Positions 634 to 62,761 of a DNA stretch of 64,000 bases are shown here, piece after piece. Position 1 is the first letter of the stretch; each line of letters opens with the position of its first letter. This DNA is from an uncultured virus (IMG/VR IMGVR_UViG_3300001282_000003) (lineage: Duplodnaviria > Heunggongvirae > Uroviricota > Caudoviricetes), in the IMG/VR virus record IMGVR_UViG_3300001282_000003. One strand, given 5' to 3'. The position numbers and the translations under genes were made by a program. The notes beneath the pieces are model-generated. The model was not told the origin of the DNA, did not search any database, and worked only from the letters and a program-made list of their open reading frames with translations.

Positions 634-1560
634 ATGATGAAGAATATCGGATATTGTTGTATTCCAATGGGATGTAACGAAGGTAAACCTAAAAAAGAAC
701 ATATAACAGTTAATAGAGGTATGGTTCGTAGAACTTTTGATGCTAAAGGCTTGCCTTATGCTTCCGAGTTAATTATTGAGAATCTAAAAGATACTCTCAA
801 AGTTCTAGACTATAATCTTAAAAATCATATCTATATCTATCGTTTGAGTTCAGACTCATTTCCATGGATGTCTGAATATGAATTCTCTGACTTACCAAAT
901 TTCAAATTGATTCAAATTCTTATGGCTCAAATTGGTGAGAAGATTAAATCAAATAAAATTCGTGTGAGCTATCACCCAGGTCCTTTCAACGTTTTGGCAA
1001 GTGAGAATCCATCAGTTGTTGAGAAAACAATTAAAGAGTTAAATAAACACGCTGAATTAATGGATTTAATGAACTTAGACAAGACTACGTTCTATCCGAT
1101 AAACATTCATATCAATACAACTAAACCTACCAGAGAAGAAGCCGCAGTGCGTTTCTGTGAGCAGTTTGAGAACCTAAGTGAATCTTGTAAGTTAAGATTA
1201 GTTGTTGAGAATGATGATGGTCAAAATCAATACTCTGTAAAGATGTTACACGACTGGGTTCATACTAAGATTGGTATTCCAATTACTTTTGACCAACATC
1301 ACTTTAACTATGGTCCACAAGACCAATCAATGGAAGAAGCATTGAGATTAGCTCACTCTACTTGGAAAACAAGAGCCTTAACTCATATGAGTTCACCAAA
1401 AACATTAGAAGATACATCAGGAAAACAAACAGCACATGCCGATTATATTTATGAAGAAATTAAAACATTTGGTCTTGACTTTGATACAGAAATCGAAGCG
1501 AAAGCAAAAGACCTCGCAGTTATTAGATATAGAAATCAGTTTAAAGTTCTCAAAGGGTGA
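634..1560 (+). CDS. uvsE: UV damage repair endonuclease UvsE/UVDE
   Basis: IGYCC start, YRLSSD, HPGPFNVLAS, LVVENDD, PITFDQHH, HADYI, EIEAKAKD motifs. Confidence 0.92.
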   Translation: MMKNIGYCCIPMGCNEGKPKKEHITVNRGMVRRTFDAKGLPYASELIIENLKDTLKVLDYNLKNHIYIYRLSSDSFPWMSEYEFSDLPNFKLIQILMAQIGEKIKSNKIRVSYHPGPFNVLASENPSVVEKTIKELNKHAELMDLMNLDKTTFYPINIHINTTKPTREEAAVRFCEQFENLSESCKLRLVVENDDGQNQYSVKMLHDWVHTKIGIPITFDQHHFNYGPQDQSMEEALRLAHSTWKTRALTHMSSPKTLEDTSGKQTAHADYIYEEIKTFGLDFDTEIEAKAKDLAVIRYRNQFKVLKG

Positions 1561-1792
1561 TCGTGTTGTTATTGTGACACGAGCTTATGAGGATCTTAAA
1601 TATCGAGTAGGTTCGGTGGTTGCTGCTAAAGATACACTGGAATTTAACTCATATAGAGTTGAACTAGATTTATATCCAAGTGGATATCAATTAAAACAAC
1701 ATTTAATACCTATTATTTTTGCTGAAGAAGAACTTCAGTTTGAAGATACATCTAAAGAAAGAGATTGGAAGTTAAAACAAGTTCTAAAATGA
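1436..1792 (+). CDS. hypothetical SH3/KOW-like protein with C-terminal RxxK[IL] tag
   Basis: FSKGDRVVIV beta-barrel-like start, ends ERDWKLKQVLK; start uncertain (1451 possible), overlaps end of uvsE. Confidence 0.6.
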   Translation: MPIIFMKKLKHLVLTLIQKSKRKQKTSQLLDIEISLKFSKGDRVVIVTRAYEDLKYRVGSVVAAKDTLEFNSYRVELDLYPSGYQLKQHLIPIIFAEEELQFEDTSKERDWKLKQVLK

Positions 1793-2103
1793 TAAAAAAA
1801 ATACTTTCTATATTCAAAAATAAAGAAGAAGAAATTTATGGTTTTGTTAAATATAACAGAGGTGATGAAGTCAAAGTAACTATTTACTCTGAGGTGCCAG
1901 AATTTTGGTATATTGGTAAAGTATTAGATATTAATGCTCGTTATGTTCTGCCAGATATTAAACAAAGTTGGAAAGTAGAATATTATGTTTCATTTAAGAA
2001 TAGTAAAGGAAGTGAACTAAGATACTGGTTCTTAGAATCAGAATTAAGAAAGTACTCTTTACAAGAAGAAAGAAATTCAAGAATAGACCAATTGTTAAAT
2101 TAA
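1789..2103 (+). CDS. hypothetical SH3/KOW-like protein with C-terminal tag
   Basis: YNRGDEVKV...WFLESEL, ends ERNSRIDQLLN; ATG overlaps previous stop (ATGA). Confidence 0.7.
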   Translation: MIKKILSIFKNKEEEIYGFVKYNRGDEVKVTIYSEVPEFWYIGKVLDINARYVLPDIKQSWKVEYYVSFKNSKGSELRYWFLESELRKYSLQEERNSRIDQLLN

Positions 2104-2121
2104 AACTTAATATATAAGTCT

Positions 2122-2484
2122 ATGAAGAAAATGAGTGAATTAATCAAAGAAAGTGTAGGTTATGTAGGAGTTGGTTGTCAAAGCCTTAATTCTGAGTTAA
2201 TATACTTGACAGAAGGTGGTAATCAGGTTGGGAGTCTTGTACTTATTTATAACGAAAATACAGCTTCTATTTTTTCAGTAGAAGTTCTAAATAAACATAG
2301 AGGAAAAGGATATGGTAAGAAATTAGTAGTTGAGGCTATTAGTAGAGCTAAGTCTAAAGGTTCATATGTTTTAGAGTTAAATACAGAAACAGATAATACT
2401 GTTGCTAATAATCTTTATCAATCTTTAGGATTTGAATTAAGAGGATTAAAAGATGATTTTAATAATTACATAAAAACATTATAA
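2122..2484 (+). CDS. GNAT-family acetyltransferase
   Basis: V-x4-RGKGYGKKL acetyl-CoA motif A and NTVANNLYQSLGF motif B; AATATATA at 2109-2116. Confidence 0.9.
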   Translation: MKKMSELIKESVGYVGVGCQSLNSELIYLTEGGNQVGSLVLIYNENTASIFSVEVLNKHRGKGYGKKLVVEAISRAKSKGSYVLELNTETDNTVANNLYQSLGFELRGLKDDFNNYIKTL

Positions 2485-2485
2485 A

Positions 2486-3393: not shown

Positions 3394-3894
3394 TTACTTT
3401 AATATTTCTTCTAATTTATTATCTCTTTCTTCGTACTTCTCTGTTATATCAGCATATCTTAATCTATATGATGTGCTTAGATTTACTAGATCTACATATT
3501 TTATAATTGAAAAGAGCACAAATGTTTTCCATCTTCTCTTTTCAAAAAAATCATTAACTAAATCTTCGGATTCAAATTCTTTTGTTTCAGCATTATATTG
3601 TTTTGAAACTATTTTATTATCAACTACTTTCATTATATGAAATGATGGCATCGAAGTAACATAAGAAATTTTAGTCCAATGTTTATCTAAAAATTGACCT
3701 AACCATAATGATGGATCAACTGTAGCCATTCTAACATTACTATTATCACTACCCATTCTAAAGCAGTTATCAATTAGTATTTTAATACCTTCAAGATTAT
3801 TCTCACCAATAGGATAAACTGATATACTTTTTGGATCCGTATTCGTTAGTTGAGTCGGTCCATTTAAATTTTTTATAAAGTCTTTGAATATCAT
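3394..3894 (-). CDS. hypothetical protein with C-terminal tag
   Basis: 166 aa; ends EERDNKLEEILK. Confidence 0.7.
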   Translation of the reverse strand: MIFKDFIKNLNGPTQLTNTDPKSISVYPIGENNLEGIKILIDNCFRMGSDNSNVRMATVDPSLWLGQFLDKHWTKISYVTSMPSFHIMKVVDNKIVSKQYNAETKEFESEDLVNDFFEKRRWKTFVLFSIIKYVDLVNLSTSYRLRYADITEKYEERDNKLEEILK

Positions 3895-4574: not shown

Positions 4575-4980
4575 ATTTAACAATCTCAATTTTAGCCTCT
4601 CTTAAAAAATCTAAGCCAGAGGTGTCTTTATAGTCTTCAATGTAGACTAATCGTTTTATTCCAGATTGTAGTATAAGTTTAGAACAATCTCTACAAGGAG
4701 AATGTGTTTGATATAAAGTACTACCCTCACAAGAATGACCATGTTTAGCACACTTTAGAATAGCATTAGCTTCACCGTGAATAACATACCAATTAGTATC
4801 ACCATCACCATTCTCACAAGAGTTATCAAAGCCTGTTGGTGTTCCATTATAACCATCAGATATAATCATTCCGTTCTTAACTATTAGGGCACCTACTTGT
4901 TTTCTACTACAATGTGAAAGTTTAGCCCACTCTGTAGCCATATTCAAATAAGTTCTATCGTATCTTTCTTCCTTAGTCAT
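4558..4980 (-). CDS. dCMP deaminase (ComEB-like)
   Basis: SHCSRKQVGALIV, GYNGTP, HGEANA and SPCRDC zinc motifs. Confidence 0.93.
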   Translation of the reverse strand: MTKEERYDRTYLNMATEWAKLSHCSRKQVGALIVKNGMIISDGYNGTPTGFDNSCENGDGDTNWYVIHGEANAILKCAKHGHSCEGSTLYQTHSPCRDCSKLILQSGIKRLVYIEDYKDTSGLDFLREAKIEIVKYGQGT

Positions 4981-5122
4981 TTTTAAATAGTTTATTTATT
5001 TTATATTTTCTAACCTCGTTTCTTTCCAGACCTAACATTTTAATTATCCAATCTATTGAAAAGTATGGAGTATTATATGATTTAATCATATCAGACATTA
5101 TTTTCATTCTATCCTTATTCAT
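4973..5122 (-). CDS. 49-aa mini-protein: portal (gp20)-like fragment plus C-terminal tag
   Basis: Not in ORF track; MNKDRMKIMSDMIKSYNTPYFSIDWIIKMLGLERNEVRKYKINKLFKND; 8-nt ATGANTAA overlaps at both ends. Confidence 0.7.
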   Translation of the reverse strand: MNKDRMKIMSDMIKSYNTPYFSIDWIIKMLGLERNEVRKYKINKLFKND

Positions 5123-5267
5123 TGAATAATTTATTAATTTTTTTCTTTCTTATAAGTTTTCTAACACTATCTTTATATACCTTATTAAAGGCTTCTTTTG
5201 GATATATTCTACCATTGTGTTTATCATAGGCTTTTTGTATAACACCTTCTAGAATATACTTACTCAT
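5115..5267 (-). CDS. 50-aa mini-protein: prohead protease (gp21) N-terminal-like fragment plus C-terminal tag
   Basis: MSKYILEGVIQKAYDKHNGRIYPKEAFNKVYKDSVRKLIRKKKINKLFNE; start at the ATGAGTAA overlap. Confidence 0.75.
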   Translation of the reverse strand: MSKYILEGVIQKAYDKHNGRIYPKEAFNKVYKDSVRKLIRKKKINKLFNE

Positions 5268-5433
5268 CTGGAAATAACTTTTTAATTTTTTCTTTTCTAC
5301 TACCTCTTTTAAAATCATTTATAACATCAGCAACAGCAGGTGAAACAACCATATAATTAGCACTACCTTTAGTAGATGCTTTATGAATCATTTCAGATGC
5401 CTTTAATAATTTATTAATTAGTTCTTTACTCAT
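5260..5433 (-). CDS. 57-aa mini-protein: major capsid protein (gp23)-like fragment plus C-terminal tag
   Basis: Not in ORF track; MSKELINKLLKASEMIHKASTKGSANYMVVSPAVADVINDFKRGSRKEKIKKLFPDE; ATGAGTAA overlap with upstream HNH gene. Confidence 0.72.
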   Translation of the reverse strand: MSKELINKLLKASEMIHKASTKGSANYMVVSPAVADVINDFKRGSRKEKIKKLFPDE

Positions 5434-8206: not shown

Positions 8207-8629
8207 CTATTTAAGAATCTCTTTTATTTTTCTATCTCTTTCTAAAATTTTGAATTTAATTTCTAAATATTCTTCTATCTCTGAAGGTAAGTTAAGGTTA
8301 TTCTTTTTTAACTCATCGTAAAAAGGTTTACCTAAAACATTTAATGTTGAAATAGCAACAGCAAGATGTGGATCACCATAACCATCAACTTCAATATCTT
8401 CATCTAAAACATGATAAGTTGTTTTATTAATTGAGTAGTTCATAGTGCTACCGCCCCAAGTAAGATATTGACCAGATGATAATGTAGATGTTGTGATTGA
8501 AGAATTTGTACCAGATATGTTGATAACTCCAGAATTACCTACTGAGCTTGATATAGAAGGTGTTCCAAATACTGGAGCACCTATTGCGCTTGTGTGAACT
8601 GTTTGTCCGGCTATGTTTACGAATCCCAT
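8207..8629 (-). CDS. hypothetical protein with Ser/Thr-rich N-terminus and C-terminal tag
   Basis: ends ERDRKIKEILK with a TAG stop. Confidence 0.7.
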   Translation of the reverse strand: MGFVNIAGQTVHTSAIGAPVFGTPSISSSVGNSGVINISGTNSSITTSTLSSGQYLTWGGSTMNYSINKTTYHVLDEDIEVDGYGDPHLAVAISTLNVLGKPFYDELKKNNLNLPSEIEEYLEIKFKILERDRKIKEILK

Positions 8630-8658: not shown

Positions 8659-9204
8659 TTAGATAATCTTACTAATTTGAATATGGCGATAAAGACTTTG
8701 AAACTCTTCTCTTATTTCTTCTTTGTATTCATATGAATAATTATTTGAAAAATAATCATATTCTTTTCTCTCTACTTTCTTACTAATTGATTCATAATTG
8801 GCTTTAACTTTATCAAAGCAGTTTTCTTTATCAGTCCACTTAACCATATTGTTAATTAAGTCAAAGTCAATCTTTTTGAATCCGTCAAAAAACTCAACTT
8901 GAGCATGTGAGTATAGATAGTGTCTAATAACTTTATCATAATAATCTTCTTCTAAAACTCCTTTAGGATTTGATAACTCTGTTGTTGTAAAGTAAAACTC
9001 AACACCTATGTTTATTAAATGTTTAACTAATTTTACTATTGCGTTTGAAACTCTATTGTCTAAAAAAACATAAACTATATCATCCTCAACAAAACAAACC
9101 GGTATATGTTCATATTTTTTGAACATAACAAATTTACCTTTAACAACCCAAGTAGGATTGACTAAAGGTCTAAATTTATCTGGTATTAAGTTATTTAAGT
9201 CCAT
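8659..9204 (-). CDS. hypothetical protein with C-terminal tag variant
   Basis: ends YRHIQISKII. Confidence 0.7.
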   Translation of the reverse strand: MDLNNLIPDKFRPLVNPTWVVKGKFVMFKKYEHIPVCFVEDDIVYVFLDNRVSNAIVKLVKHLINIGVEFYFTTTELSNPKGVLEEDYYDKVIRHYLYSHAQVEFFDGFKKIDFDLINNMVKWTDKENCFDKVKANYESISKKVERKEYDYFSNNYSYEYKEEIREEFQSLYRHIQISKII

Positions 9205-15279: not shown

Positions 15280-15633
15280 ATGAATCAAAGATCAATTAAT
15301 CTTTCACCCTGGAAAGAAATTTCTATATCAACTGAAGTACAACATCATACTTTAATTGATATAGCAACCATTATCATAAGTGATGATGAAGACTATTATA
15401 TAATTGAGGATGATATTGAAAAAGTAATGGATGTTAGTCAAATGCCTCATTATATAAAAGAAGATTGGATTAACTACAATAAGAAAGAACTTAACCAAAA
15501 AGTTATAGATAAACACATCGCAGTTTATACCGATAAGTCTGAAATGATATATCCACCTGACAGAGAAGTTGAAGAAATAATTTCTACACTAAAATCAATA
15601 AAAAGACATTTAATTATTAAAAAGATAATTTAA
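15280..15633 (+). CDS. hypothetical protein with C-terminal tag variant
   Basis: ends IKRHLIIKKII. Confidence 0.65.
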   Translation: MNQRSINLSPWKEISISTEVQHHTLIDIATIIISDDEDYYIIEDDIEKVMDVSQMPHYIKEDWINYNKKELNQKVIDKHIAVYTDKSEMIYPPDREVEEIISTLKSIKRHLIIKKII

Positions 15634-21967: not shown

Positions 21968-22432
21968 ATGGTGTCTTTGAATAAAGAATATAATCAAATT
22001 GTGAACCTTACTAAATTCAATGTGAATTTTAGTAAGTTTATTCATAATAATGACTTATTGAGTCATAGTCCAGACTATATTCTTGAAAAATATAATCATT
22101 GGATTGGATTTGAACCAACTATTGAGTGTAAATTATATACACCAGATGATATGACTGATTTTTTTCTTAAATATTGGAAAAGATGGGGTATATTTGAAGA
22201 ATATTCTGTGAAAAATATTTTGATGTATCTTTACTCAACTAGAAGTATGAATCTAGTATTAATGTCTGAGAAGTTTGAAGAGTATATCGGGCCAATGAAT
22301 ATGATATCAGATATACCAGATAAAAAAGGATTACATCATAAATCAGATTTATTTATTAATGATGTATTAGAAAAGAATAAAGACAATGTAAAAGTTGTTT
22401 TAAGAGATATGAAAATTGGAAGTATAATATAA
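21968..22432 (+). CDS. hypothetical protein with C-terminal tag
   Basis: behind TATATTTG 21956-21963; ends LRDMKIGSII. Confidence 0.7.
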   Translation: MVSLNKEYNQIVNLTKFNVNFSKFIHNNDLLSHSPDYILEKYNHWIGFEPTIECKLYTPDDMTDFFLKYWKRWGIFEEYSVKNILMYLYSTRSMNLVLMSEKFEEYIGPMNMISDIPDKKGLHHKSDLFINDVLEKNKDNVKVVLRDMKIGSII

Positions 22433-23388: not shown

Positions 23389-23837
23389 TAAACGATAAAG
23401 TGATAATGATTGTAGAAAATCTGATACAATCAACTAAAAACGCAGAGTTAGAATGGATTGATAAAGGTTCTGTTGATAAAAGAAGTTATCATCGTGAGTA
23501 TTATGCTATTGCTGAAGATGGTACAAAATACGAGGCAGAAGTTAAGTACACATTAAGTAATAGTGGTACTTGGGTATTAGAATCTGCTCCTTCTATCTGG
23601 GTTAGAAGTGAGAAACTTCCAAATGGTGTTTTCTATATCTATGGTGGTCAATCCGAATTGAAAGAAATTATTTCCGAATTTAGAAAAGTAATTATGGATA
23701 AGTATTGTCAAGATATGAAGCCATCTGAAAAAGTGGTTGAAGATGCTTTAGATGGTATTGCTAAAGGTATTAGTATATCAACTTATCGTGATAATAAACT
23801 AAATAAGATTCTTGGTGTCTTTGGATTAGGTAAATAA
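23385..23837 (+). CDS. hypothetical protein with C-terminal tag
   Basis: ends YRDNKLNKILGVFGLGK. Confidence 0.7.
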   Translation: MINDKVIMIVENLIQSTKNAELEWIDKGSVDKRSYHREYYAIAEDGTKYEAEVKYTLSNSGTWVLESAPSIWVRSEKLPNGVFYIYGGQSELKEIISEFRKVIMDKYCQDMKPSEKVVEDALDGIAKGISISTYRDNKLNKILGVFGLGK

Positions 23838-24683: not shown

Positions 24684-24936
24684 AAATATGGGTAAGATAA
24701 TTTCTATGAAGAGAGGTGACTTTCCCATAGATAGTTTTGTTATTATGCCTGGTGTTACCCATTATAAAAACATATACACAAATGGAAATTATTTATTCTT
24801 TAGTCAAGAAGACTATAAACAATCCATAACTATTGAATTTACTAATGAAGGTGAGTTAGATAGATTTTTTACTATGTTAATGAGAGAGATAAAATTAAAT
24901 CAGCTAATAAATGTTGAGACGAAAAATACTAAATAG
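24664..24936 (+). CDS. hypothetical protein with C-terminal tag
   Basis: ends MREIKLNQLINVETKNTK. Confidence 0.6.
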   Translation: MMLRITKNMGKIISMKRGDFPIDSFVIMPGVTHYKNIYTNGNYLFFSQEDYKQSITIEFTNEGELDRFFTMLMREIKLNQLINVETKNTK

Positions 24937-25141
24937 AATAGGTGTTGTGTTTGGTATATTAGCATTCTTAATGATGTTTGTTATACCATTCTTTATCAAG
25001 TCTAATGATAAAATGTATGCTGGTATTTACTTTTGTTTCTTTCTAACTTGTACTTGTGTGGCTAATGTAACATTAGAAAAATCAAATAAACCACCATCTC
25101 TTGAAGAAAGAGAAGAAAAAATTAGACAAATTATTAAGTGA
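24911..25141 (+). CDS. two-TM membrane protein with C-terminal tag
   Basis: two hydrophobic segments; ends EREEKIRQIIK. Confidence 0.65.
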   Translation: MLRRKILNRIGVVFGILAFLMMFVIPFFIKSNDKMYAGIYFCFFLTCTCVANVTLEKSNKPPSLEEREEKIRQIIK

Positions 25142-25416
25142 AAGTTTATTGTAAAAGAACTTGCTTTGAAAAGAATACAAATGCTTTTCCAGTAAATGGA
25201 AAAGAGTATGGTCAAGACTATGTTAAATGGGCTTGGGGTAAGATATATGAATGTCACGAACCAAAAGATTATGAAAAATCGGCTACTTATTTAATAATAG
25301 AGTCTGAAGTAAAAGAATCTTGGTATCCAATAAGTGAGAAGAATTTTAACAAACATTTTGAAACTTTAGAAGAAAATCGTAATAAGAAAATAGAAAAAAT
25401 TTTAAAAAATGATTAA
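25138..25416 (+). CDS. hypothetical protein with C-terminal tag
   Basis: GTG start overlapping previous stop; ends NRNKKIEKILKND. Confidence 0.7.
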   Translation: MKVYCKRTCFEKNTNAFPVNGKEYGQDYVKWAWGKIYECHEPKDYEKSATYLIIESEVKESWYPISEKNFNKHFETLEENRNKKIEKILKND

Positions 25417-25918: not shown

Positions 25919-26658
25919 AATATTTATCAGATACAGAAATCCTTAACTGGAACAGAAGATTAGAAAGAAGTGATTACGCAGTTTATCCACTTTCCAATGT
26001 TAGATCAGGTCATCCTGACATCATCTTTAGACAAAAAATCAATAATGGTTATAGTCCTATGGGTGAACAACTTGTTGAAACAATTGATCCATTTATTCGA
26101 TATGACTTTACATTCTCAGTAGCTTCTAACAGGAAAGAAACATTTCATGACTTATTTGAAAAACTATCAAAAGATCCATTTGGTACTAAATCTATTTATA
26201 GAGATCAGAAAAGTGAGAAGATAATGGATATTACTTTTAATGATACTGTTATTGAAAGTAAAGAAGTAAATACACACTTAGTTTTTGAAAAAGAGTATAT
26301 TAGATTTACCATACATTTTGCTGGTAAGTTAGGATCTATAATGGCTTATGTTTCTTATTTAGAAGATACTATTAATTTCTTCTCTGAGATTTGGGGTTAT
26401 AATGAAGATGGTTCAGAAGTTTGTTTATTAAAATATCCAATTGGTACAATTGTTTCTTTACCTAAAGATAAGTCTACTGATTATTTAGTTTTAGAATATA
26501 AGTATAGAAAATTAGATGATAAGTATTTTATCGATTTTATTGCTAGTGAAATGTTAAATAATAAAGGTTCGGTTATAACTTATGGTGAGATTTATACATT
26601 TAGAGAATCAGAATTATGTTACAGTCGTAATTCAAGAATTGATGATATTTTAAATTAA
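25915..26658 (+). CDS. hypothetical protein with C-terminal SH3-like region and tag
   Basis: KYPIGTIV...FRESEL; ends SRNSRIDDILN. Confidence 0.7.
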   Translation: MKYLSDTEILNWNRRLERSDYAVYPLSNVRSGHPDIIFRQKINNGYSPMGEQLVETIDPFIRYDFTFSVASNRKETFHDLFEKLSKDPFGTKSIYRDQKSEKIMDITFNDTVIESKEVNTHLVFEKEYIRFTIHFAGKLGSIMAYVSYLEDTINFFSEIWGYNEDGSEVCLLKYPIGTIVSLPKDKSTDYLVLEYKYRKLDDKYFIDFIASEMLNNKGSVITYGEIYTFRESELCYSRNSRIDDILN

Positions 26659-29360: not shown

Positions 29361-29647
29361 TAGTTCAAACTAAATTTCTTTGTAAAACAGGTAGCAGAAC
29401 CGCACCGAGAGGTCCACTTGATGGTATTAAATGGCAAGATAGATTCATTGAAGATAAGTGGTATGATGGTGAGTATGAAACTTGGTCTTGGGAAGATGGC
29501 TATAGAATAAATAGTGGATGGAGAAGATATTGGGTTATAAATGAACAAGGTGAGAAAGAAGAAATATCAAAACCAATGTTCAGATTACTTTTTGAAACTG
29601 ATACACAACAATTAAGAGATAGAAAAATAGAAGACTTAATAAAATAA
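29357..29647 (+). CDS. hypothetical protein with C-terminal tag
   Basis: ends LRDRKIEDLIK. Confidence 0.7.
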   Translation: MIVQTKFLCKTGSRTAPRGPLDGIKWQDRFIEDKWYDGEYETWSWEDGYRINSGWRRYWVINEQGEKEEISKPMFRLLFETDTQQLRDRKIEDLIK

Positions 29648-29653: not shown

Positions 29654-30055
29654 ATGTACGATAACGAATCAACCAAAGAGAACCAAATTCATGTTTCAAA
29701 TGAGTTTGTTGATATATTCTCAAACTTCAACGTTGTAACACAAGTTGAAAAAATGAAACAACTTACTAAGCGTGAGTTGTATTTACTTCTAACCGTTTGC
29801 TTAGATAAATTCTCTGATGAAGATCCTGTTGTTAAACACAACTTACTTCCTTTCAAAGAAGAAATTATGAATATCTTTGATGTTCAAGATGATAAAGATG
29901 CTATTGACTCAGTGCTGATTGATTTAATCACTGAATCTGGTGATAAATACATTGAAACTGATAACATCGTTTATAATGACGACCAAAAGTTACCAGAGCC
30001 TTTAACCAAAGACCAAGTTCGTGATGCTAAAATTAATATCATCAACGAGAACTAA
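29654..30055 (+). CDS. hypothetical protein with C-terminal tag
   Basis: ends VRDAKINIINEN. Confidence 0.7.
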   Translation: MYDNESTKENQIHVSNEFVDIFSNFNVVTQVEKMKQLTKRELYLLLTVCLDKFSDEDPVVKHNLLPFKEEIMNIFDVQDDKDAIDSVLIDLITESGDKYIETDNIVYNDDQKLPEPLTKDQVRDAKINIINEN

Positions 30056-30098: not shown

Positions 30099-31898
30099 AT
30101 GGAAGAAACATTAAATACTGAACAAGAAGTGAAACAACCTGTAATTGGTGAGTTCAAACCTAAGCGCAAGTTCTTAAACTTTGTATCGGCTGTAAACGGA
30201 GCAAGAATTCGTTTCATCCGTGATATCGCATTTGTAAAAGGCGAGAAACTATCTGGCACCTTAGAAGGTGTCGTTTTCAAAATCACAATCTGTGATGAAG
30301 GTACAATTAACTTTGAAGAAGTTGATACTACTGTAACTGATGCGGCTCAACGTAAACGTCTTATTGATGATATTGATTCAACTGATGTTACAGGTTACGC
30401 TCAGAAATTTGTAGTTGCTGGTATTCAGTTTGCTGATGTTAATGGTGACCTTTGCTATCTTGAAGTAGAACAAATGAAACCAATTGATAAATTGAAATCT
30501 ATCTTTGACGATGAAGAAACTCCTTCTTTGTCTAATAAAGGTATGAGTTTTCTTGATGATTTACTAAGTGGTTCTAATGAAGTTGAAACATTAGAATTGT
30601 CTGAAAAAGATGCTGAGATTTTTGTTGAAGCTATTGAAAATCCACCATCACCAAATGAAAAATTAATCAAAGCTTCTGAGTCTTATTTGGAACAACAATT
30701 CCGTAAGATGAATGAAGATAAAATTAATGAGTTAAAAAACCGCATTGAGGATGCTGAGAAAGAGTCTGCTCGTTTAAGAAGAGAGATCTCTATGAATGAA
30801 ACTAAGTTGAAGAAACAAACAGAAGATTTAGGTGTATTAGAAACTCGTTTAGATAGTTTCAATGCTAATGATGAATCTACGGGTTATGTATTCTTCGTTT
30901 CGGAAGAACAAAAGCCAGAAGAAATTGGATTAACAGAAGATAACAGAGCAATGGCTGATAAGATTGCGGATATCGTTGGTCTTAAAAAAGATGTTCTTTT
31001 CAAAATGTTAACAGAAGGTCACTACAAAATTCGTATTGCTGAGAAATCAGATATGACTGCTGAGAAAGTAAAAGTTACTAATGATATCTTAGAAAAGATG
31101 AAGGCTTTGGTTAATGGTGATAGTTCACTTGAAGCTAAAGTAACTATGACTGAACCAGGTCAGTTTGAGTATCGTGGTAGTATGACTTGGCATCAAATTG
31201 TTGGTAAGATGATTCGTAAAGGATTTGAACAAGAGCCAGAGTTTGATAAGATTTGTCAATCTAACTCTTACGATTCTAAAGAAGAGGTTAAAGATGAAAT
31301 GTCTGATATGAAATCAGACATTCAAAAAATGGCTGATGGTTTAGGTCTTGGTAAAGTTGATTTTGGTAAAGACGGAATTTCAGTAGAAGGTGAGACAAAA
31401 ACACCTTCAATTGAGATTAAATCAAAAACTGTAAGAACATACAAAGAAGAAACTACATTAGTAGTTGTAGGTACAATCGACCACGAGGATAACCGTGATG
31501 TTGAAATCACTGACGACTATACCGGATTTGAAGTTTATGTTGGTAATAAAAAGATGAAGGGTGGTTATGAGTCCGATGGATTTATTTCAATTATGACTTT
31601 AACAGAGTTTGCTAAATGGCAAAAACAATACCCAGATGCTATGACTGATGGTGGTGGTATAGGTTCATTCTTATTACCTAACTTCAAAGGAACTATTGGA
31701 GTAACTGCTATGTATGATGTAGGTGAATTCACAAATGAATTTGATTTGGATGATTACATTCTACACCAAGATGGAATGGAAGATGCTTATGTGTCCTTGA
31801 CTCTACCAGAAGGAACTCAAATTATGAAGATGGATGATTATCATCAAGTTCCAGTTGCCGCAATGAGAGATATTAAAATCAATAAAATAATTAAGTAA
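30099..31898 (+). CDS. large hypothetical protein with central coiled coil and C-terminal tag
   Basis: behind TATATTTG 30073-30080; ends MRDIKINKIIK. Confidence 0.75.
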   Translation: MEETLNTEQEVKQPVIGEFKPKRKFLNFVSAVNGARIRFIRDIAFVKGEKLSGTLEGVVFKITICDEGTINFEEVDTTVTDAAQRKRLIDDIDSTDVTGYAQKFVVAGIQFADVNGDLCYLEVEQMKPIDKLKSIFDDEETPSLSNKGMSFLDDLLSGSNEVETLELSEKDAEIFVEAIENPPSPNEKLIKASESYLEQQFRKMNEDKINELKNRIEDAEKESARLRREISMNETKLKKQTEDLGVLETRLDSFNANDESTGYVFFVSEEQKPEEIGLTEDNRAMADKIADIVGLKKDVLFKMLTEGHYKIRIAEKSDMTAEKVKVTNDILEKMKALVNGDSSLEAKVTMTEPGQFEYRGSMTWHQIVGKMIRKGFEQEPEFDKICQSNSYDSKEEVKDEMSDMKSDIQKMADGLGLGKVDFGKDGISVEGETKTPSIEIKSKTVRTYKEETTLVVVGTIDHEDNRDVEITDDYTGFEVYVGNKKMKGGYESDGFISIMTLTEFAKWQKQYPDAMTDGGGIGSFLLPNFKGTIGVTAMYDVGEFTNEFDLDDYILHQDGMEDAYVSLTLPEGTQIMKMDDYHQVPVAAMRDIKINKIIK

Positions 31899-48672: not shown

Positions 48673-48746
48673 GGTTGCGTAGCTCAGCTGGATAGAGCAA
48701 CTCACTTCTAATGAGTAGGTCACAGGTTCGAATCCTGTCGCGATCA
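48673..48746 (+). tRNA. trnR: tRNA-Arg(UCU)
   Basis: canonical cloverleaf, CT-TCT-AA loop; CCA not encoded. Confidence 0.95.
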
Positions 48747-48759
48747 CAAATCAAATAAA

Positions 48760-49105: not shown

Positions 49106-49179
49106 GGTCCTGTAGCTCAGTTGGTTAGAGCAACTGACTCATAATCAGTAGGTCCACGGTTCGAGCCCGTGCGGGACCA
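49106..49179 (+). tRNA. tRNA with CAU anticodon, probably Ile2 (lysidine type) rather than Met
   Basis: canonical cloverleaf, GACTCATAATC arm; lacks initiator GGG/CCC; CCA not encoded. Confidence 0.9.
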
Positions 49180-49196
49180 CTAAAAAAGAAAAGAAT

Positions 49197-51586: not shown

Positions 51587-51898
51587 ATGTTTCAAATAAA
51601 TTCAATGCTATTAAGAAAAATGGGGTGGACTGATCACAGTTCACCTACATTTAATAGTCCTAGATTTGATGATAATGACTTGGTTAGATTTTATATCAGA
51701 CCAGAAACAATTTATTTTTTTATAAAAGAACTTTCAGAAGAAGAAAAACAAATATCAAAAAATTCATATAAATTTGTAATTGGTAAAAGAGAAATTCAAT
51801 TTGATTCTAATATAGAATTAATTAGATTAATAATTGAAAATGAAGCTTGTAACGAAGATTATAAAAGGCACTTTAAATTAAATAAAATATTAAGATGA
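51587..51898 (+). CDS. hypothetical protein with C-terminal tag
   Basis: start reassigned to 51587; ends KRHFKLNKILR. Confidence 0.65.
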   Translation: MFQINSMLLRKMGWTDHSSPTFNSPRFDDNDLVRFYIRPETIYFFIKELSEEEKQISKNSYKFVIGKREIQFDSNIELIRLIIENEACNEDYKRHFKLNKILR

Positions 51899-53336: not shown

Positions 53337-53675
53337 ATGATTATACTTACTTGTCAGTTAATCTTTGATAAAGGCGGTGAAAGAATACTTACCTCAGTTG
53401 TTTATGATGATATTACTGATAGATTTGTTAGAACGGCTCAAAAAATATCACCTGAATTAGTACAGGATTTAAATTCTAACAACCCTATGGTTGATATTAA
53501 TGATGTTGTTAGTTTAGATTATATTGATTATGTATTAGATGATGAAGAGTTAGAAGAAGTTATTGAAATGGTTGAAGATGGACCTGACAATGATATAATT
53601 AAAAAAGCAAAAGAATTTATTGTCTTCTATAAAAGAGATAAAAAAATAAAAAATATAATAGATGAAAAAGATTAA
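53337..53675 (+). CDS. hypothetical protein with C-terminal tag
   Basis: ends KRDKKIKNIIDEKD. Confidence 0.7.
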   Translation: MIILTCQLIFDKGGERILTSVVYDDITDRFVRTAQKISPELVQDLNSNNPMVDINDVVSLDYIDYVLDDEELEEVIEMVEDGPDNDIIKKAKEFIVFYKRDKKIKNIIDEKD

Positions 53676-54596: not shown

Positions 54597-54827
54597 ATGA
54601 AGTATAAACCCGGAGATGTCGTAATAAAAACCACTGGTGGAAATAAAATGACTGTCTTTGATAAAGTTAATGATAGTTATAAATGTCTTTGGTTTGTTGA
54701 AAGTTCAATGAATGAATCTGAGTTCAAAGAAGAAGAGATAGTCTCTCTAAATGAATATAAACGATTTCTAAAGACAGAAGAAAGAGAAGATAAGATTAAC
54801 CAACTTCTTAATTCTTTTACCAATTAA
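54597..54827 (+). CDS. YodC/DUF2158-like small protein with C-terminal tag
   Basis: YKPGDVV...GGNKMTV...CLWF; ends EREDKINQLLN. Confidence 0.72.
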   Translation: MKYKPGDVVIKTTGGNKMTVFDKVNDSYKCLWFVESSMNESEFKEEEIVSLNEYKRFLKTEEREDKINQLLNSFTN

Positions 54828-57114: not shown

Positions 57115-57459
57115 ATGAAACTCGATATCAATGAAGTTTACCACAATTATATAGTTAGAATAGTAATATTTGCTCTTTTTACTTTCAAAAGACAGATAAG
57201 ACAACCAAATATTTATAAGATTTCTGTTATAACTTTCACTATTAAAAGATTGCCTTGGAAAATTAATTTAGTAATTGATACTGGATTGAAATTAAATAAA
57301 GAAGATGAAAGAGAAATACTACTTAATGAATTATTAGAGGGTATTGAAACAGATTATTTATCAACAGTTGTTGTTACATTTGTGACACCATTAAAAGAAG
57401 TTACGATGAGTATTGATTTAAGTGATGAAGAAAAGTATGAACACTATCTTTATTCTTAA
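57115..57459 (+). CDS. hypothetical protein
   Basis: 114 aa; internal EREILLNELL resembles the tag. Confidence 0.55.
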   Translation: MKLDINEVYHNYIVRIVIFALFTFKRQIRQPNIYKISVITFTIKRLPWKINLVIDTGLKLNKEDEREILLNELLEGIETDYLSTVVVTFVTPLKEVTMSIDLSDEEKYEHYLYS

Positions 57460-61645: not shown

Positions 61646-61650
61646 TACAC

Positions 61651-61674
61651 AAACCCTCGTCAAGAGGGTTTTTT
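61651..61674 (+). terminator. intrinsic terminator
   Basis: AAACCCTC-gtcaa-GAGGGTTT plus T run. Confidence 0.8.
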
Positions 61675-61728
61675 ATTTTAAACTTTATCACTATTTCCGT
61701 ATAAAACATAAAAATATAGTGATGATAG

Positions 61729-62481
61729 ATGATAGAATTGCTTCGCAATCAACTAGACTGTTTTGAGGATATTAAATTTGAATTTGACCCGGTAGCTCAC
61801 CGATACACATATGAAGGTGAACCTTTTATTTCTGTAACAAGATTCATACAACAATTTCATAAACCGTTTGAACAAGACTACTGGTCTAAAAAGAAAGCCG
61901 AACAAGCCGGAGTTCCACAAGATTGGATTTTAGCCGAGTGGAAAAAATTAAATGATTATGCCAACGAAGTTGGTACAGATACTCACCAATGGATTGAAGA
62001 TTACTTTAATCAAATATGGAAACCACTTCCAAATAACTTAGATGTTATACATCGCATAAATAAATTCAATAAGATTTATGCTAAACAATTATTCAAGTTA
62101 GAACCATTGAAGTTCGAGGTAAGAGTATTCTCACCAAAGTGGAAAATAGCTGGAATGATTGACTCTTTATTTTTATATAGAGGTAAGATTTACATTCTTG
62201 ACTGGAAAACTAATAAAGATTTTACAGATGATAATCATCCTAAAGGAATCTATGAGAAATTACTTGCTCCTTTTCAAGACCATTTCAAAAATCATCTTAA
62301 TGAATACTCAATACAACTTTCACTTTACTCACTTATCTTAGAAGAGTGGGGCTTTCAAGTAGGTGGTGCTTACATTGTTCACATTGGACCAGGAGATGAA
62401 GATGCTGAATTATATAAAGTAGTTGATATGAGAGACAATCTAAAATTATTCTTAAATGGATCTATACAAGAGTCTAATTAA
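61729..62481 (+). CDS. PD-(D/E)XK exonuclease (RecB/Cas4-like family)
   Basis: ISVT, GTDTH, E...IAGMID, ILDWKT, QLSLY motifs. Confidence 0.85.
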   Translation: MIELLRNQLDCFEDIKFEFDPVAHRYTYEGEPFISVTRFIQQFHKPFEQDYWSKKKAEQAGVPQDWILAEWKKLNDYANEVGTDTHQWIEDYFNQIWKPLPNNLDVIHRINKFNKIYAKQLFKLEPLKFEVRVFSPKWKIAGMIDSLFLYRGKIYILDWKTNKDFTDDNHPKGIYEKLLAPFQDHFKNHLNEYSIQLSLYSLILEEWGFQVGGAYIVHIGPGDEDAELYKVVDMRDNLKLFLNGSIQESN

Positions 62482-62761
62482 TGACGATGAATTCTTAGAT
62501 TACTTCTGTGATGTCTTAGAGGATAACATTTCCGAAAAAGCAAAATATAAAGTTAGTATTGGTTTTAAGAAACATGACATGTCTATATTCTTTTTTATAG
62601 ATGGTTCATCTATATTACAGGTTATGCCTGATAAGGATTTACAATACACATATGCTAATGTTCCTTCTTATGAAGATGAAATACAACATTCGATTAATAT
62701 TATTGAGAAACAATATAAACGAGATAAAACGATAGAAGATATCATAAAAAAAGAGAGTTAA
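62456..62761 (+). CDS. hypothetical protein with C-terminal tag
   Basis: ends KRDKTIEDIIKKES. Confidence 0.7.
   Translation: MDLYKSLINDDEFLDYFCDVLEDNISEKAKYKVSIGFKKHDMSIFFFIDGSSILQVMPDKDLQYTYANVPSYEDEIQHSINIIEKQYKRDKTIEDIIKKES

What the first reader, a model, noticed from the sequence alone, without database searches (positions are those of the whole stretch)
1436..62761. Shared C-terminal R-x-x-K-[IL]-x-x-[IL]-[IL] tag on more than 20 unrelated proteins
Seen at or near the C-terminus: RDWKLKQVL (1436), RNSRIDQLL (1789), RDNKLEEIL (3394), RKYKINKLF (4973), RKKKINKLF (5115), RKEKIKKLF (5260), RDRKIKEIL (8207), RHIQISKII (8659), RHLIIKKII (15280), RDMKIGSII (21968), RDNKLNKIL (23385), REIKLNQLI (24664), REEKIRQII (24911), RNKKIEKIL (25138), RNSRIDDIL (25915), RDRKIEDLI (29357), RDAKINII (29654), RDIKINKII (30099), RDVKLELM (34043), RELIISSL (34874), RHFKLNKIL (51587), RDKKIKNII (53337), REDKINQLL (54597), RDKTIEDII (62456). 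The carriers run from 49 to 599 aa, include SH3-like, YodC-like and membrane proteins, and sit on both strands. The motif is conserved at protein rather than DNA level. No recognisable enzyme carries it, nor does any protein with the N-terminal late motif. Inference: a modular adaptor library of variable binding domains plus a constant amphipathic docking helix (conceptually like F-box or PRANC adaptors) that docks onto one phage or host hub such as an AAA+ machine, protease, RNA polymerase or compartment. I know of no description of this motif.
Basis: partly seen in the sequence, partly recalled or inferred. Interest (0 to 1): 0.9.

Follow-up and report, generated by a model that had tools for sequence, protein, structure and literature searches.

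The report
Tail tag marking early phage proteins
About one gene in five in this stretch of a giant bacterial virus ends in the same short peptide, carried only by small proteins of unknown function whose genes look early-expressed; it probably lets one common partner recognise them all, but that partner is not yet identified.

Summary
In the window, 18 of 98 crude genes end in the strict motif R-x-x-[KR]-[IL]-x-x-[ILMV]-[ILFMV], against 0.07 expected and with no internal copy. A profile finds 22 of 98.

The window belongs to a T4-type huge phage of Bacteroidota. A 635-kb relative carries the tag on 108-161 of 989 genes. So do 128 of 1234 genes in 48 related viral contigs, against 0 of 474 in host-like bacterial loci.

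Conservation is at protein level. The carrier bodies are unrelated, small, soluble and have no family assignment. Orthologues keep the tag down to 36% identity. It forms the end of a long C-terminal helix in two models, one of them low-confidence overall.

New here: carriers look like early genes and almost never bear the N-terminal motif that marks about 100 late genes. A sister lineage shifts the tag from R-D to R-K, another uses a different tail (DPYGEExW), and more distant relatives have none.

Best reading: an address or docking tag read by one co-evolving partner. The phage's N-domain-less ClpC-type ATPase with ClpP is the leading candidate, but the evidence for it is weak. No binding was tested.

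The scan has noted comparable, different tags in other giant phages. My literature searches found no description.

The parts
1760..1786 (+). tag core RDWKLKQVL, 1 aa before the stop of ORF 1436-1792 (true start probably later; it overlaps uvdE)
   Evidence: profile 24.6
2071..2097 (+). tag core RNSRIDQLL of gene 1789-2103 (104 aa)
   Evidence: 24.7
3400..3426 (-). tag core RDNKLEEIL of gene 3394-3894 (166 aa)
   Evidence: 23.3
4985..5011 (-). R-K sub-variant RKYKINKLF of tiny gene 4973-5122 (49 aa)
   Evidence: 21.4
5124..5150 (-). R-K sub-variant RKKKINKLF of gene 5115-5318 (67 aa)
   Evidence: 21.7
5272..5298 (-). R-K sub-variant RKEKIKKLF of gene 5260-5433 (57 aa); the body has a sub-threshold Pfam Gp23 (capsid) match
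   Evidence: 14.6
8213..8239 (-). tag core RDRKIKEIL of gene 8207-8629 (140 aa); it ends the terminal helix H116-139 of the model
   Evidence: (25.5)
8662..8688 (-). degenerate tag RHIQISKII at the very end of gene 8659-9204 (181 aa)
   Evidence: loose regex; 10.6
15604..15630 (+). degenerate tag RHLIIKKII at the very end of gene 15280-15633 (117 aa)
   Evidence: loose regex; 13.8
22403..22429 (+). tag core RDMKIGSII of gene 21968-22432 (154 aa); a TAnnTTTG box lies just upstream of the gene
   Evidence: 18.0
23787..23813 (+). tag core RDNKLNKIL, 7 aa before the stop of gene 23385-23837 (150 aa)
   Evidence: 23.3
24883..24909 (+). tag core REIKLNQLI, 8 aa before the stop of gene 24667-24936 (89 aa)
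   Evidence: 22.6
25109..25135 (+). tag core REEKIRQII of gene 24911-25141 (76 aa, hydrophobic N-terminal half)
   Evidence: 19.7
25378..25404 (+). tag core RNKKIEKIL of gene 25138-25416 (92 aa)
   Evidence: 24.0
26626..26652 (+). tag core RNSRIDDIL of gene 25915-26658 (247 aa)
   Evidence: 20.4
29615..29641 (+). tag core RDRKIEDLI of gene 29357-29647 (96 aa)
   Evidence: 23.3
30020..30046 (+). one-residue-shifted variant RDAKINIIN of gene 29654-30055 (133 aa)
   Evidence: 12.6
31866..31892 (+). tag core RDIKINKII of the only large carrier, gene 30099-31898 (599 aa); a TAnnTTTG box lies upstream
   Evidence: 22.1
51866..51892 (+). tag core RHFKLNKIL of gene 51587-51898 (103 aa)
   Evidence: 20.0
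53634..53660 (+). tag core RDKKIKNII of gene 53337-53675 (112 aa)
   Evidence: 20.1
54783..54809 (+). tag core REDKINQLL of the YodC-like (DUF2158) gene 54597-54827 (76 aa); it lies in helix H51-75 behind a small beta-barrel
   Evidence: (24.9)
62720..62746 (+). tag variant RDKTIEDII of gene 62456-62761 (101 aa), at an operon end (the next gene is convergent)
   Evidence: loose regex; 18.5

Best explanation
The motif is a portable C-terminal address or docking peptide. Its consensus over about 14 residues is [K/hydrophobic]-x-[E/Y]-[I/L]-R-[D/E/N]-x-K-[I/L]-x-x-[I/L/V]-[L/I/F]-[K/N/D], and it forms the end of a long terminal alpha-helix.

A clade of 0.4-0.64 Mb T4-type phages of Bacteroidota attaches it to 11-22% of their gene products. 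The likely hosts are Crocinitomicaceae-like freshwater Flavobacteriales. The carriers are small, soluble proteins with no family assignment. Where their genes have their own upstream region, they show host-type sigma-A promoter boxes, so they are probably early genes. Late proteins instead carry an N-terminal motif resembling the T4 capsid-targeting sequence, and the two labels almost never coincide.

Inferred, not shown: one common reader that co-evolves with the phage lineage recognises the tail through the invariant Arg, the Lys and three hydrophobic residues.

My most likely concrete mechanism, at about 0.2 on its own: the tail docks on the phage's own ClpC-type unfoldase. That ATPase lacks the N-domain, keeps the M-domain and the ClpP-docking loop, and is encoded together with ClpP. 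The tagged early proteins, and whatever they hold, would then be handed to proteolysis as consumable adaptors or timed substrates.
For: Enrichment and specificity:
- 18 of 98 window genes carry the strict motif, against 0.07 expected.
- 108 of 989 genes in LR745206, against 0.71 expected; 138-161 of 989 by profile.
- 128 of 1234 genes in 48 related viral loci, against 0 of 474 in host-like loci.
- An unbiased spaced-triplet scan recovers R..KI at p = 1e-78.

Protein-level selection:
- Tag codon usage equals genome usage.
- 120 of 120 YodC-like homologues keep R and K, while the residues after the motif vary.
- 9 of 9 orthologues of gene 8207 keep the tag down to 36% identity.
- All 11 tagged window proteins with a best hit in LR745206 hit a tagged protein; none of the 44 untagged ones does.

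Modularity: the bodies are unrelated. 108 carriers give 1 BLAST pair. 0 of 107 have a Pfam family over the cut-off.

Specific reader: position 1 is Arg 108 times and Lys 4 times.

Structure: the tag ends a helix of about 24 residues in two models.

Expression class:
- The late-type word TAATATATA lies upstream of the capsid, portal and scaffold genes.
- Among genes with an upstream gap of at least 40 nt, it precedes 27 of 28 N-motif genes but 1 of 20 C-tag genes.
- Overall it precedes 3 of 107 C-tag genes against 98 of 518 untagged small genes, p = 4.5e-6.
- TAnnTTTG precedes 9 of 20 C-tag genes, 0 of 28 N-motif genes and 37 of 195 untagged small genes. This is the flavobacterial sigma-A -7 box according to a passage read in PMC9723704.

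Lineage pattern:
- The tag is R-D in the window clade and R-K in LR756504.
- LR756501 has a different tail.
- LR756500, PTm1 and Lak-A1 have no tag.

ClpC lead:
- The ATPase is present in the three tag-bearing lineages and absent from the three tag-less relatives.
- It is ClpC-like (E = 8e-239 to 3j3s) and starts at ClpC residue 145.
- The A-tag lineages keep the M-domain, the VGF loop and ClpP. The DPYGEExW lineage has an N-domain but no M-domain.
Against: No binding or turnover was tested.

Against the ClpC link:
- Four other jumbo phages with a ClpC-like ATPase and ClpP (G005, G006, G007, G009) show no comparable C-terminal tag. Their best triplets cover 6-17 proteins, with p between 2e-6 and 8e-12.
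- The LR756501 lineage has a tail tag but no ClpP and no VGF loop.
- 77 LR745206 proteins, the ATPase among them, have homologues in LR756504 and LR756501 but none in PTm1 or Lak-A1. The phyletic pattern therefore does not single the ATPase out.

Against the early-gene assignment: it rests on promoter-like words, not on expression data. 81% of C-tag genes have no upstream gap of 40 nt or more of their own.

Other points:
- The tag also occurs internally. There are 22 strict internal hits against 10.8 expected, some in helicases and an RNA ligase.
- The helical moment is not above that of shuffles.
Confidence: 0.5

Rival explanations
1. Capsid or virion loading signal. The tail binds the scaffold core or the inner capsid wall, so that the carriers are packaged and injected. 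This would be a C-terminal counterpart of the T4 capsid-targeting sequence or of encapsulin cargo peptides.
For: The phage has T4-type head genes (Gp23, Portal_T4, Terminase_6N).

T4 offers a precedent of diverse proteins that share only a terminal targeting peptide (passage read in PMC3012670).

Some carriers are copies of pieces of head proteins. In one search, 8 of 17 small paralogues of capsid or protease-scaffold fragments in the three tag-bearing genomes carry their lineage's tail; one more was seen only. Examples from LR745206:
- 207176 has capsid residues 344-530 plus the tag.
- 460435 has scaffold 14-residue repeats plus the tag.
Against: - C-tag genes lack the late-type promoter word found upstream of head genes (1 of 20 against 27 of 28) and show sigma-A-type boxes instead.
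- The late class already has its own N-terminal motif resembling the T4 targeting sequence, on about 100 proteins, and the two labels exclude each other (1 double in 208).
- Carriers are sparse in the structural region. The 150-200 kb bins of LR745206 hold 1 C-tag gene among 52 genes.
- In a wider test the fragment class is not enriched in the A-tag genomes: 2 of 24 in LR745206 against a background of 160 of 789.
Confidence: 0.1
2. A docking tag for a reader other than the Clp machine. The early proteins would be brought to one place, for example a host hub (RNA polymerase, ribosome, replisome clamp, cell pole) or another phage protein, without any proteolysis.
For: All the evidence for a specific reader applies equally.

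The spacing of the three hydrophobic residues (i, i+3, i+4), preceded by a polar residue near the C-terminus, recalls clamp-binding tails. That comparison is recalled, not tested.

The tail is absent from host-like loci (0 of 474), so it does not copy a common host motif. The tag changes between phage lineages.
Against: - No T4-type clamp C-domain was found in three relatives by Pfam PF09116. This is a weak negative.
- A conserved host hub predicts a stable tag, yet the tag shifts from R-D to R-K and is absent in sister lineages that are also assigned to Bacteroidota.
- More than 100 unrelated proteins docking on a replisome or polymerase site would be without precedent in a phage.
Confidence: 0.2
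3. No external reader. The terminal helix makes the carriers associate with each other (a short bundle) or with the membrane.
For: - The tag lies in a helix of about 24 residues.
- The net charge of the 15-mer is about +1.7.
- The hydrophobic residues lie three and four positions apart.
Against: - Strict Arg over Lys at position 1 (108 against 4) and a conserved acidic or amide residue at position 2 are not expected for lipid binding.
- The helical hydrophobic moment is 0.23, not above the 0.30 of shuffles.
- Only 3 hydrophobic positions are conserved.
- The bodies are soluble and mildly acidic; 5% have a membrane-like segment.
Confidence: 0.08
4. Not a functional peptide. The pattern would be a by-product of A/U-rich composition, of RNA-level constraints on the start region of the next gene, or of common descent of the carriers.
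For: - The tag uses amino acids with A/U-rich codons.
- The genome has 30% G+C.
- The genes are tightly packed; the median upstream gap of C-tag genes is -1 nt.
Against: - Composition predicts 0.07 hits in the window and 0.71 in the relative, against 18 and 108 observed.
- PTm1 (30% G+C) and Lak-A1 (26% G+C) give 0 of 327 and 2 of 648.
- 42 of 106 tagged genes have no closely following gene. The coupled fraction is 60%, against 53% for untagged small genes.
- Arg and Lys codon usage in the tag equals genome usage.
- The bodies share no similarity.
Confidence: 0.02

Closest known systems
Capsid-targeting sequence (CTS) of phage T4 internal proteins and Alt
   Same: A short terminal peptide is the only feature shared by a diverse, fast-changing set of small phage proteins, and it addresses them to one destination (PMC3012670, passage read). 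This phage also has T4-type head genes.
   Different: - The CTS is N-terminal, sits on late head proteins and is cut off by the head protease (this part recalled).
- The tag here is C-terminal and sits on genes that lack the late-type promoter word.
- It excludes the CTS-like N-terminal motif that about 100 late proteins of the same phage carry.
- It covers 10-20% of all genes.
Adaptor tails that dock on AAA+ unfoldases (the C-terminal ClpX-binding tail of SspB; MecA on the ClpC N- and M-domains)
   Same: A variable binding body plus a constant C-terminal docking peptide. The phage encodes a ClpC-type ATPase with an M-domain and a ClpP-docking loop, plus ClpP.
   Different: - No binding has been shown.
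- SspB's tail follows a long flexible linker (recalled), whereas here the tail ends a helix.
- The phage ATPase lacks the N-domain that MecA uses.
- Known adaptors number a handful per cell, not more than 100.
C-terminal degradation tags (ssrA-type and other ClpXP/ClpAP C-motifs)
   Same: A C-terminal peptide that acts independently of the body and could explain a label shared by proteins of unrelated function.
   Different: - Those tags need the free C-terminus (recalled). Here 0-9 variable residues follow the motif, and internal copies exist.
- Here the Arg is invariant and the tail is helical.
Encapsulin cargo-loading peptides and microcompartment encapsulation peptides
   Same: Short terminal peptides or helices on unrelated cargo, read by one shell protein. 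Encapsulin shells share the phage capsid fold (recalled).
   Different: The carriers look like early genes, and a separate late N-terminal label exists. No shell other than the capsid is known here.
F-box / PRANC adaptor families of eukaryotes and poxviruses
   Same: Many variable binding modules share one C-terminal docking module that links them to a degradation machine.
   Different: - F-box and PRANC are folded domains of 40 residues or more that bind Skp1 (recalled). Here there is a 9-14 residue motif.
- There is no homology, the host is bacterial, and the hub is unknown.
Terminal tags noted by this scan in other giant phages (e1-5347349, e1-6090216, e1-5650595)
   Same: Giant T4-type phages put a lineage-specific short tail on unrelated small proteins, some of which are copies of pieces of the phage's own capsid or protease. 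I saw the same here.
   Different: The peptide is different and the genomes are different. Those notes are unpublished AI notes. The enrichment of 'bait' fragments among carriers is weak in this clade.

Membership tests
T4-type capsid-targeting sequence (CTS) | N-terminal position on the precursor | tested here: not met
   The tag lies 0-9 residues from the C-terminus in 108 of 108 strict carriers of LR745206.
T4-type capsid-targeting sequence (CTS) | Carried by late-expressed head proteins | tested here: not met
   The late-type promoter word precedes 1 of 20 C-tag genes with an upstream gap of at least 40 nt, against 27 of 28 N-motif genes. These are promoter words only, not expression data.
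T4-type capsid-targeting sequence (CTS) | Removed by the head protease at a hydrophobic-x-Glu site; protein present in the virion | not testable with these tools
   Glu at position -2 occurs in only 20% of tags. No virion data exist for this uncultured phage.
SspB/MecA-type unfoldase adaptors | The constant tail binds an accessory domain of the AAA+ unfoldase | not testable with these tools
Only co-occurrence is available: 3 of 3 tag-bearing lineages have the ATPase and 0 of 3 tag-less relatives do.
SspB/MecA-type unfoldase adaptors | A cognate unfoldase and peptidase are present in the same genome | tested here: met
   A ClpC-like ATPase with M-domain and VGF loop, plus two ClpP paralogues, in LR745206. 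The ATPase is also in G002-G004. It could not be looked for in the window's own genome beyond these 64 kb.
SspB/MecA-type unfoldase adaptors | The variable body binds a substrate that is then delivered | not tested
   The bodies have no family: 0 of 107 over the Pfam cut-off. A few are copies of capsid or scaffold pieces.
C-terminal degrons (ssrA-like) | Recognition needs the extreme C-terminus | tested here: not met
   The distance from motif end to stop varies from 0 to 9 residues. The residues after the motif are variable in 120 homologues. Internal copies exist.
C-terminal degrons (ssrA-like) | The tag shortens the half-life of the protein | not testable with these tools
   This needs an experiment.
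Membrane-targeting amphipathic helix (MinD/FtsA type) | High helical hydrophobic moment; Lys and Arg interchangeable | tested here: not met
   The moment is 0.23 against 0.30 for shuffles. Arg occurs 108 times and Lys 4 times at position 1.
Sliding-clamp-binding C-terminal tails | A cognate clamp is encoded; the peptide plugs its hydrophobic pocket | tested here: inconclusive
   No PF09116 match in G002-G004. That is a single Pfam model, so a diverged clamp or the host clamp is not excluded. Binding was not tested.
Paralogous gene family with a conserved C-terminus | Similarity extends beyond the tail | tested here: not met
   21 window carriers: no pair with E below 0.1. 108 carriers of LR745206: 1 pair at E below 1e-3. 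The same test did detect a true family in LR756500, where 8 of 11 proteins ending in the FGF motif form one family.

The most novel reading that the evidence does not exclude
A phage-encoded targeted-proteolysis kit. More than 100 early mini-proteins act as baits, and some of them are copied from pieces of the phage's own capsid and scaffold. They catch host immune sensors that recognise phage structural proteins, other host factors, or proteins of rival phages. The shared tail plugs each bait into the phage's own N-domain-less ClpC-ClpP machine, which destroys the catch. A second, N-terminal label sends about 100 late proteins into the capsid. Two address tags would thus sort a quarter of the proteome.
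Probability: 0.1. Interest if true: 0.95.

Novelty: new variant of a known kind. Interest (0 to 1): 0.82.

Why it matters
Most genes of huge phages have no known function, and here 11-22% of them carry one strictly conserved peptide.

Together with the N-terminal label of the late class, it suggests that these phages sort about a quarter of their proteome with two short address tags. Such organisation has not been described for bacterial viruses.

The tail would then be a ready-made portable tag for Bacteroidota.

The tag is also a practical marker. Together with the promoter words, it splits the uncharacterised genes of these genomes into probable early and late classes.

Tried and rejected
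1. Complex prediction of the ATPase (residues 1-400, alignment A2) with the YodC-like carrier (A1). 

2. ClpC/ClpP as a sufficient marker.
- 80 viral loci with ClpC-like ATPases show A-tags in their flanks only where the ATPase is at least 66% identical, with one exception at 58%.
- Four whole jumbo-phage genomes with ClpC-like ATPase and ClpP have no comparable tag.

3. 77 LR745206 proteins have homologues in LR756504 and LR756501 but none in PTm1 or Lak-A1. That is too many to name one.

4. RNA-level or translational-coupling explanation: rejected.

5. Composition artefact: rejected.

6. Paralogy: rejected for the A and DPYGEExW tails. It was accepted for the ...FGF tail of LR756500, which is therefore not a tag.

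7. Equivalence of the DPYGEExW tail of LR756501 with the tag here.
- Homologous mini-proteins (a capsid piece, scaffold repeats) carry one tail or the other.
- But DPYGEExW genes are not depleted of the late-type word: 9 of 42 overall, and 5 of 10 with an upstream gap of at least 40 nt. Six score as double-labelled by the regex, and reading the N-termini suggests about ten.
- I therefore do not treat the two tails as the same system.

8. 'Bait' enrichment in general. Among small proteins matching part of a phage protein of 300 aa or more, 2 of 24 are tagged in LR745206 (background 160 of 789) and 1 of 18 in LR756504. In LR756501 it is 8 of 51 against a background of 39 of 804. Enrichment therefore holds only in the DPYGEExW lineage and, at small numbers, for head-protein pieces.

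9. A T4-type clamp: no Pfam PF09116 match in three relatives.

10. The window's own whole genome is not held. Genome-wide figures come from relatives.

11. Literature:
- 'huge phages' plus 'C-terminal motif' gave 2 papers, 1 listed, irrelevant.
- 'DPYGEE' gave 3 papers, all irrelevant.
- 'jumbo phage' plus 'early proteins' plus 'C-terminal' plus 'conserved motif' gave 0 papers.
- 'Mahaphage' gave 11 papers, of which I saw only the listing.
- A term search of the main text of PMC7162821 found 0 occurrences of 'C-terminal'. Its supplements were not read.

Full report
**What the window is**

The 64-kb window has about 30% G+C. It is 95% coding under the standard bacterial code, and 79 of 97 crude genes end in TAA.

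It belongs to a huge phage:
- Distant DNA matches go to three uncultured phage records of 635-642 kb.
- An IMG/VR contig carries a topoisomerase subunit 100% identical to that of the window (L014).
- The best-studied relative I could fetch whole, LR745206 (634,780 bp), has T4-type capsid, portal and terminase genes.

The window encodes Bacteroidota-style genes: a TonB-dependent receptor, type-IX-secretion tail domains, OmpH and a rhomboid protease. The receptor is 55-68% identical to genes on contigs of freshwater Crocinitomicaceae and other Flavobacteriales bins. That is my basis for the host guess.

**The observation**

I called genes crudely: longest ORFs first, at most 60 nt overlap, at least 40 aa. 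That gave 98 genes including ORF 1436-1792. A few tiny ones are spurious; one lies over two tRNA genes.

Results for the strict regex R..[KR][IL]..[ILMV][ILFMV]:
- It falls in the last 20 residues of 18 of 98 genes, against 0.065 expected from composition.
- It has no internal copy (1.0 expected).
- It has no hit in the reversed proteins.
- 2000 shuffles of the tails give a mean of 0.19 and a maximum of 3.

A looser regex adds three genes. A 14-column profile gives 22 of 98.

**Scale beyond the window**

| Source | Genes carrying the tag |
|---|---|
| LR745206, strict regex | 108 of 989 (0.71 expected) |
| LR745206, profile | 138-161 of 989 |
| 48 IMG/VR loci around topoisomerase orthologues (59-100% identity) | 128 of 1234 |
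| 32 host-like bacterial loci | 0 of 474, with 10 internal matches |

In LR745206 the motif ends 0-9 residues before the stop, most often 1. An unbiased scan of all spaced residue triplets, comparing the last 16 residues with internal windows, recovers the motif without any prior (R..KI, p = 1e-78).

The extended consensus is [K/hydrophobic]-[S/Q]-[E/Y]-[I/L]-R-[D48% E19% N15% K10%]-x-K(91%)-[I63% L37%]-[N/K/D]-[K/Q/E]-[I/L/V]-[L/I/F]-[K/N/D].

Carriers are small. They make up 17-25% of genes of 60-150 aa, 0 of 107 genes of 300-500 aa and 1 of 65 larger ones.

**Protein level, modular, under selection**

- Arg-1 uses AGA, AGG and CGN in the same proportions as the genome (71% against 76% AGA), and Lys-4 behaves likewise.
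- 42 of 106 tagged genes are not closely followed by another gene. The coupled fraction is 60%, against 53% for untagged small genes. The tail is therefore not a by-product of the next gene's start region.
- Bodies are unrelated. No pair of 21 window carriers reaches E below 0.1, and there is 1 pair among 108 in LR745206.
- None of 107 scanned carriers has a Pfam family over the cut-off.
- Bodies are soluble and mildly acidic.
- Among 120 homologues of the YodC-like carrier (72-100% identical), all keep the tag with invariant Arg and Lys, while the residues after it vary.
- Nine distinct orthologues of gene 8207, down to 36% identity, all keep it. Arg-131 and Lys-134 are two of only nine invariant columns.
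- All 11 tagged window proteins with a best hit in LR745206 hit a tagged protein, and none of the 44 untagged ones does.
- Position 1 is Arg 108 times and Lys 4 times, although Lys is 2.4 times more frequent in the proteome.

**Structure**

- AlphaFold2 on the YodC-like carrier (51-sequence alignment, mean pLDDT 88.9) gives a small beta-barrel. It is followed by one helix, residues 51-75, which contains the tag.
- The model of gene 8207 (9 sequences, mean pLDDT 61, C-terminal half 70-81) ends in a helix, residues 116-139, with the tag at its end.
- The helical hydrophobic moment of the 15-mer (0.23) is not above that of shuffles (0.30). This is not a classical amphipathic membrane helix.

**A second label and the expression class**

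The same triplet scan on N-termini finds a motif of the form M-K-[Y/H]-L-K-x-F-[E/N]... in all four LR genomes scanned for it. By my regex it sits on 100 LR745206 proteins. It coincides with the C-tag only once, against 107 proteins with the C-tag alone. It resembles the T4 capsid-targeting sequence; that comparison is recalled. An earlier scan note, e1-6007392, reads it the same way.

Genes with this N-motif are preceded by the word TAATATATA and its variants. The same word lies upstream of the capsid, portal and protease-scaffold genes, so I take it as the late promoter.

| Class (LR745206) | Late word within 70 nt | Late word, upstream gap of at least 40 nt | TAnnTTTG near the start, same gap |
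|---|---|---|---|
| N-motif genes | 51 of 100 | 27 of 28 | 0 of 28 |
| Untagged genes of 400 aa or more | 41 of 89 | not computed | not computed |
| Untagged small genes | 98 of 518 | 60 of 195 | 37 of 195 |
| C-tag genes | 3 of 107 (p = 4.5e-6 against untagged small) | 1 of 20 | 9 of 20 |

TAnnTTTG is the sigma-A -7 box of flavobacteria (PMC9723704, passage read). In the window the same pattern holds for single genes.

I therefore read the C-tag as a label of early genes transcribed by the host polymerase. This is an inference from promoter words, not from expression data.

**Lineage pattern**

| Genome (capsid identity to LR745206) | C-terminal tag |
|---|---|
| LR756504 (53%) | Shifted to R-K-x-[KR]-I-[E/D]-x-L-[L/I]: 55 of 963 strict; the triplet R...I..L in 113 of 963 |
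| LR756501 (52%) | 2 of 1077 strict hits; instead 42 unrelated proteins of 55-843 aa end in ...DPYGEExW..., with only 1 BLAST pair among them |
| LR756500 (35%) | None; its ...FGF tail belongs to one paralogous family |
| PTm1 (29%) | None |
| Lak-A1 (29%, read with code 15) | None |

Homologous mini-proteins carry different tails in different lineages:
- A copy of capsid residues 494-542 bears the R-K tag in LR745206 and DPYGEExW in LR756501.
- Copies of the scaffold's 14-residue repeats behave likewise.

However, DPYGEExW genes are not depleted of the late word: 9 of 42 overall, and 5 of 10 with an upstream gap of at least 40 nt. Six score as double-labelled by the regex, and reading the N-termini suggests about ten. 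I do not equate the two systems.

**Pieces of head proteins**

In one search, 8 of 17 small paralogues of capsid or protease-scaffold fragments in the three tag-bearing genomes carry their lineage's tail. One more was seen only. Window gene 5260-5433 has a sub-threshold capsid-family match. Scan notes e1-5347349, e1-6090216 and e1-5650595 describe similar 'bait' mini-proteins elsewhere.

A wider test tempers this. Among small proteins that match part of any phage protein of 300 aa or more:
- 2 of 24 are tagged in LR745206, against a background of 160 of 789.
- 1 of 18 is tagged in LR756504.
- 8 of 51 are tagged in LR756501, against a background of 39 of 804.

**Who reads the tag?**

LR745206 encodes a 701-aa ATPase that matches Bacillus ClpC at E = 8e-239 from ClpC residue 145 onward. 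It has no N-domain. It keeps the short M-domain and the Val-Gly-Phe loop at the position of ClpC's ClpP-docking loop; the function of that loop is recalled. Two ClpP paralogues are present.

| Lineage | ATPase | ClpP |
|---|---|---|
| G002-G004 (relatives of the window) | present | not looked for |
| LR756504 | same architecture | present |
| LR756501 | N-domain present; no M-domain, no Val-Gly-Phe loop | none |
| LR756500 | none | present |
| Lak-A1 | none | present |
| PTm1 | none | none |

So the presence of the ATPase tracks the presence of a tail tag (3 of 3 against 0 of 3), and its accessory domain tracks the tag type.

Against this lead:
- Four other jumbo phages with a ClpC-like ATPase and ClpP have no comparable tag.
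- 77 proteins, the ATPase among them, have homologues in both tag-bearing sister genomes but none in PTm1 or Lak-A1.

The ClpC reading is therefore a lead at about 0.2, not a result.

**Comparison with known systems and novelty**

In principle the closest known system is the T4 capsid-targeting sequence. [quoted passage not shown] The tag here differs in its terminus, in its inferred timing, in excluding the CTS-like label, and in scale.

In mechanism, the closest systems are adaptor tails that dock on AAA+ unfoldases, and C-terminal degrons. The defining tests for those either fail (dependence on the free C-terminus) or cannot be run here (binding, turnover).

My searches found no description of this motif. 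For one search I saw only the listing. For PMC7162821 I ran a term search of the main text and did not read the supplements.

I class the tag as a new variant of a known kind (terminal address tags). It is of high interest because of its scale, its strictness, and the two-label partition of about a quarter of the proteome.

Noticed in passing
window genes 11-595(-), 20318-20893(+), 35342-36757(-), 38383-39147(+), 39976-40743(+), 41162-42331(+), 54817-55578(-), 55583-56620(-), 57456-58748(-): An N-terminal motif M-K-[Y/H/I/L]-[L/K]-K-x-[F/Y]-x-x-[F/L]-[E/N] begins these proteins, among them the CCA/poly(A)-polymerase-like enzyme. It resembles the T4 capsid-targeting sequence (recalled). It sits on about 100 of 989 proteins of LR745206 and is enriched at N-termini in all four LR genomes scanned.
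   Followed up: partly
window, e.g. upstream of 20318, 38383, 55583(-), 57456(-) against upstream of 634, 21968, 30099, 34043: There are two promoter-like word classes. TAATATATA variants lie before N-motif genes and, in the relative, before head genes. TAnnTTTG lies just before the start codon of uvdE, several C-tag genes and others.
   Followed up: partly
L119-L138 and L211-L227 (LR756501), e.g. record positions 499642-505983 and 552409-560466: 42 unrelated proteins of 55-843 aa in the 735-kb phage end in ...[K/R]-[V/I]-[F/Y/I]-[S/T]-x-x-D-P-Y-G-E-E-x-W-x-x. Many lie in tandem arrays. Six also score for the N-terminal late-type motif by regex, and about ten do so on reading the N-termini.
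   Followed up: partly
L004/L005 (LR745206 record 198546-200669): This is a 707-aa protein just upstream of the capsid gene, homologous to the protein that PTm1's record annotates as prohead core scaffolding protein and protease. It holds about 12 tandem 14-residue repeats (...Y-S-E-Y-I-A-E-N-L-D-K-N-I-A...) whose core resembles the N-terminal late motif. Small stand-alone copies of the repeats exist.
   Followed up: partly
L009:23224-25326 (LR745206); L232:1477-3609 (G002): The phage encodes a ClpC-type ATPase without N-domain, two ClpP paralogues, DnaK, DnaJ, PrkA plus SpoVR, M16 and M42 peptidases and an SPFH protein.
   Followed up: partly
L351-L353 (G007, record about 8-45 kb): 61 proteins of another jumbo phage carry K-L-G or L-G-K within their first 17 residues. 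The 25 listed are 48-70 aa, lie at 8-24 kb and begin M-[K/N/D/E/R]-L-G (one M-G-M-K-L-G). Several end in ...N-E-I-R. This may be a family or a tag.
   Followed up: no
window 48580-48665, 48673-48747, 49106-49180: Three tRNA genes: Leu(UAA), Arg(UCU) and Met. The first two read TTA and AGA, the commonest Leu and Arg codons of the tag.
   Followed up: no
window 43180-45993(-), 16546-18756(+), 46000-47583(-), 62800-63288(-), 15819-16382(+): Host-like envelope genes inside the phage: a TonB-dependent receptor (55-68% identical to Crocinitomicaceae/Flavobacteriales contigs), two proteins with type-IX-secretion C-terminal domains, an OmpH-like chaperone and a rhomboid protease.
   Followed up: partly
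LR745206 record 120830-122440, 235077-236744, 73370-74458 and others: Full-consensus copies of the tag occur inside some larger proteins, including two helicases and an RNA ligase, and near the N-terminus of several small ones. Strict internal hits number 22, against 10.8 expected.
   Followed up: no
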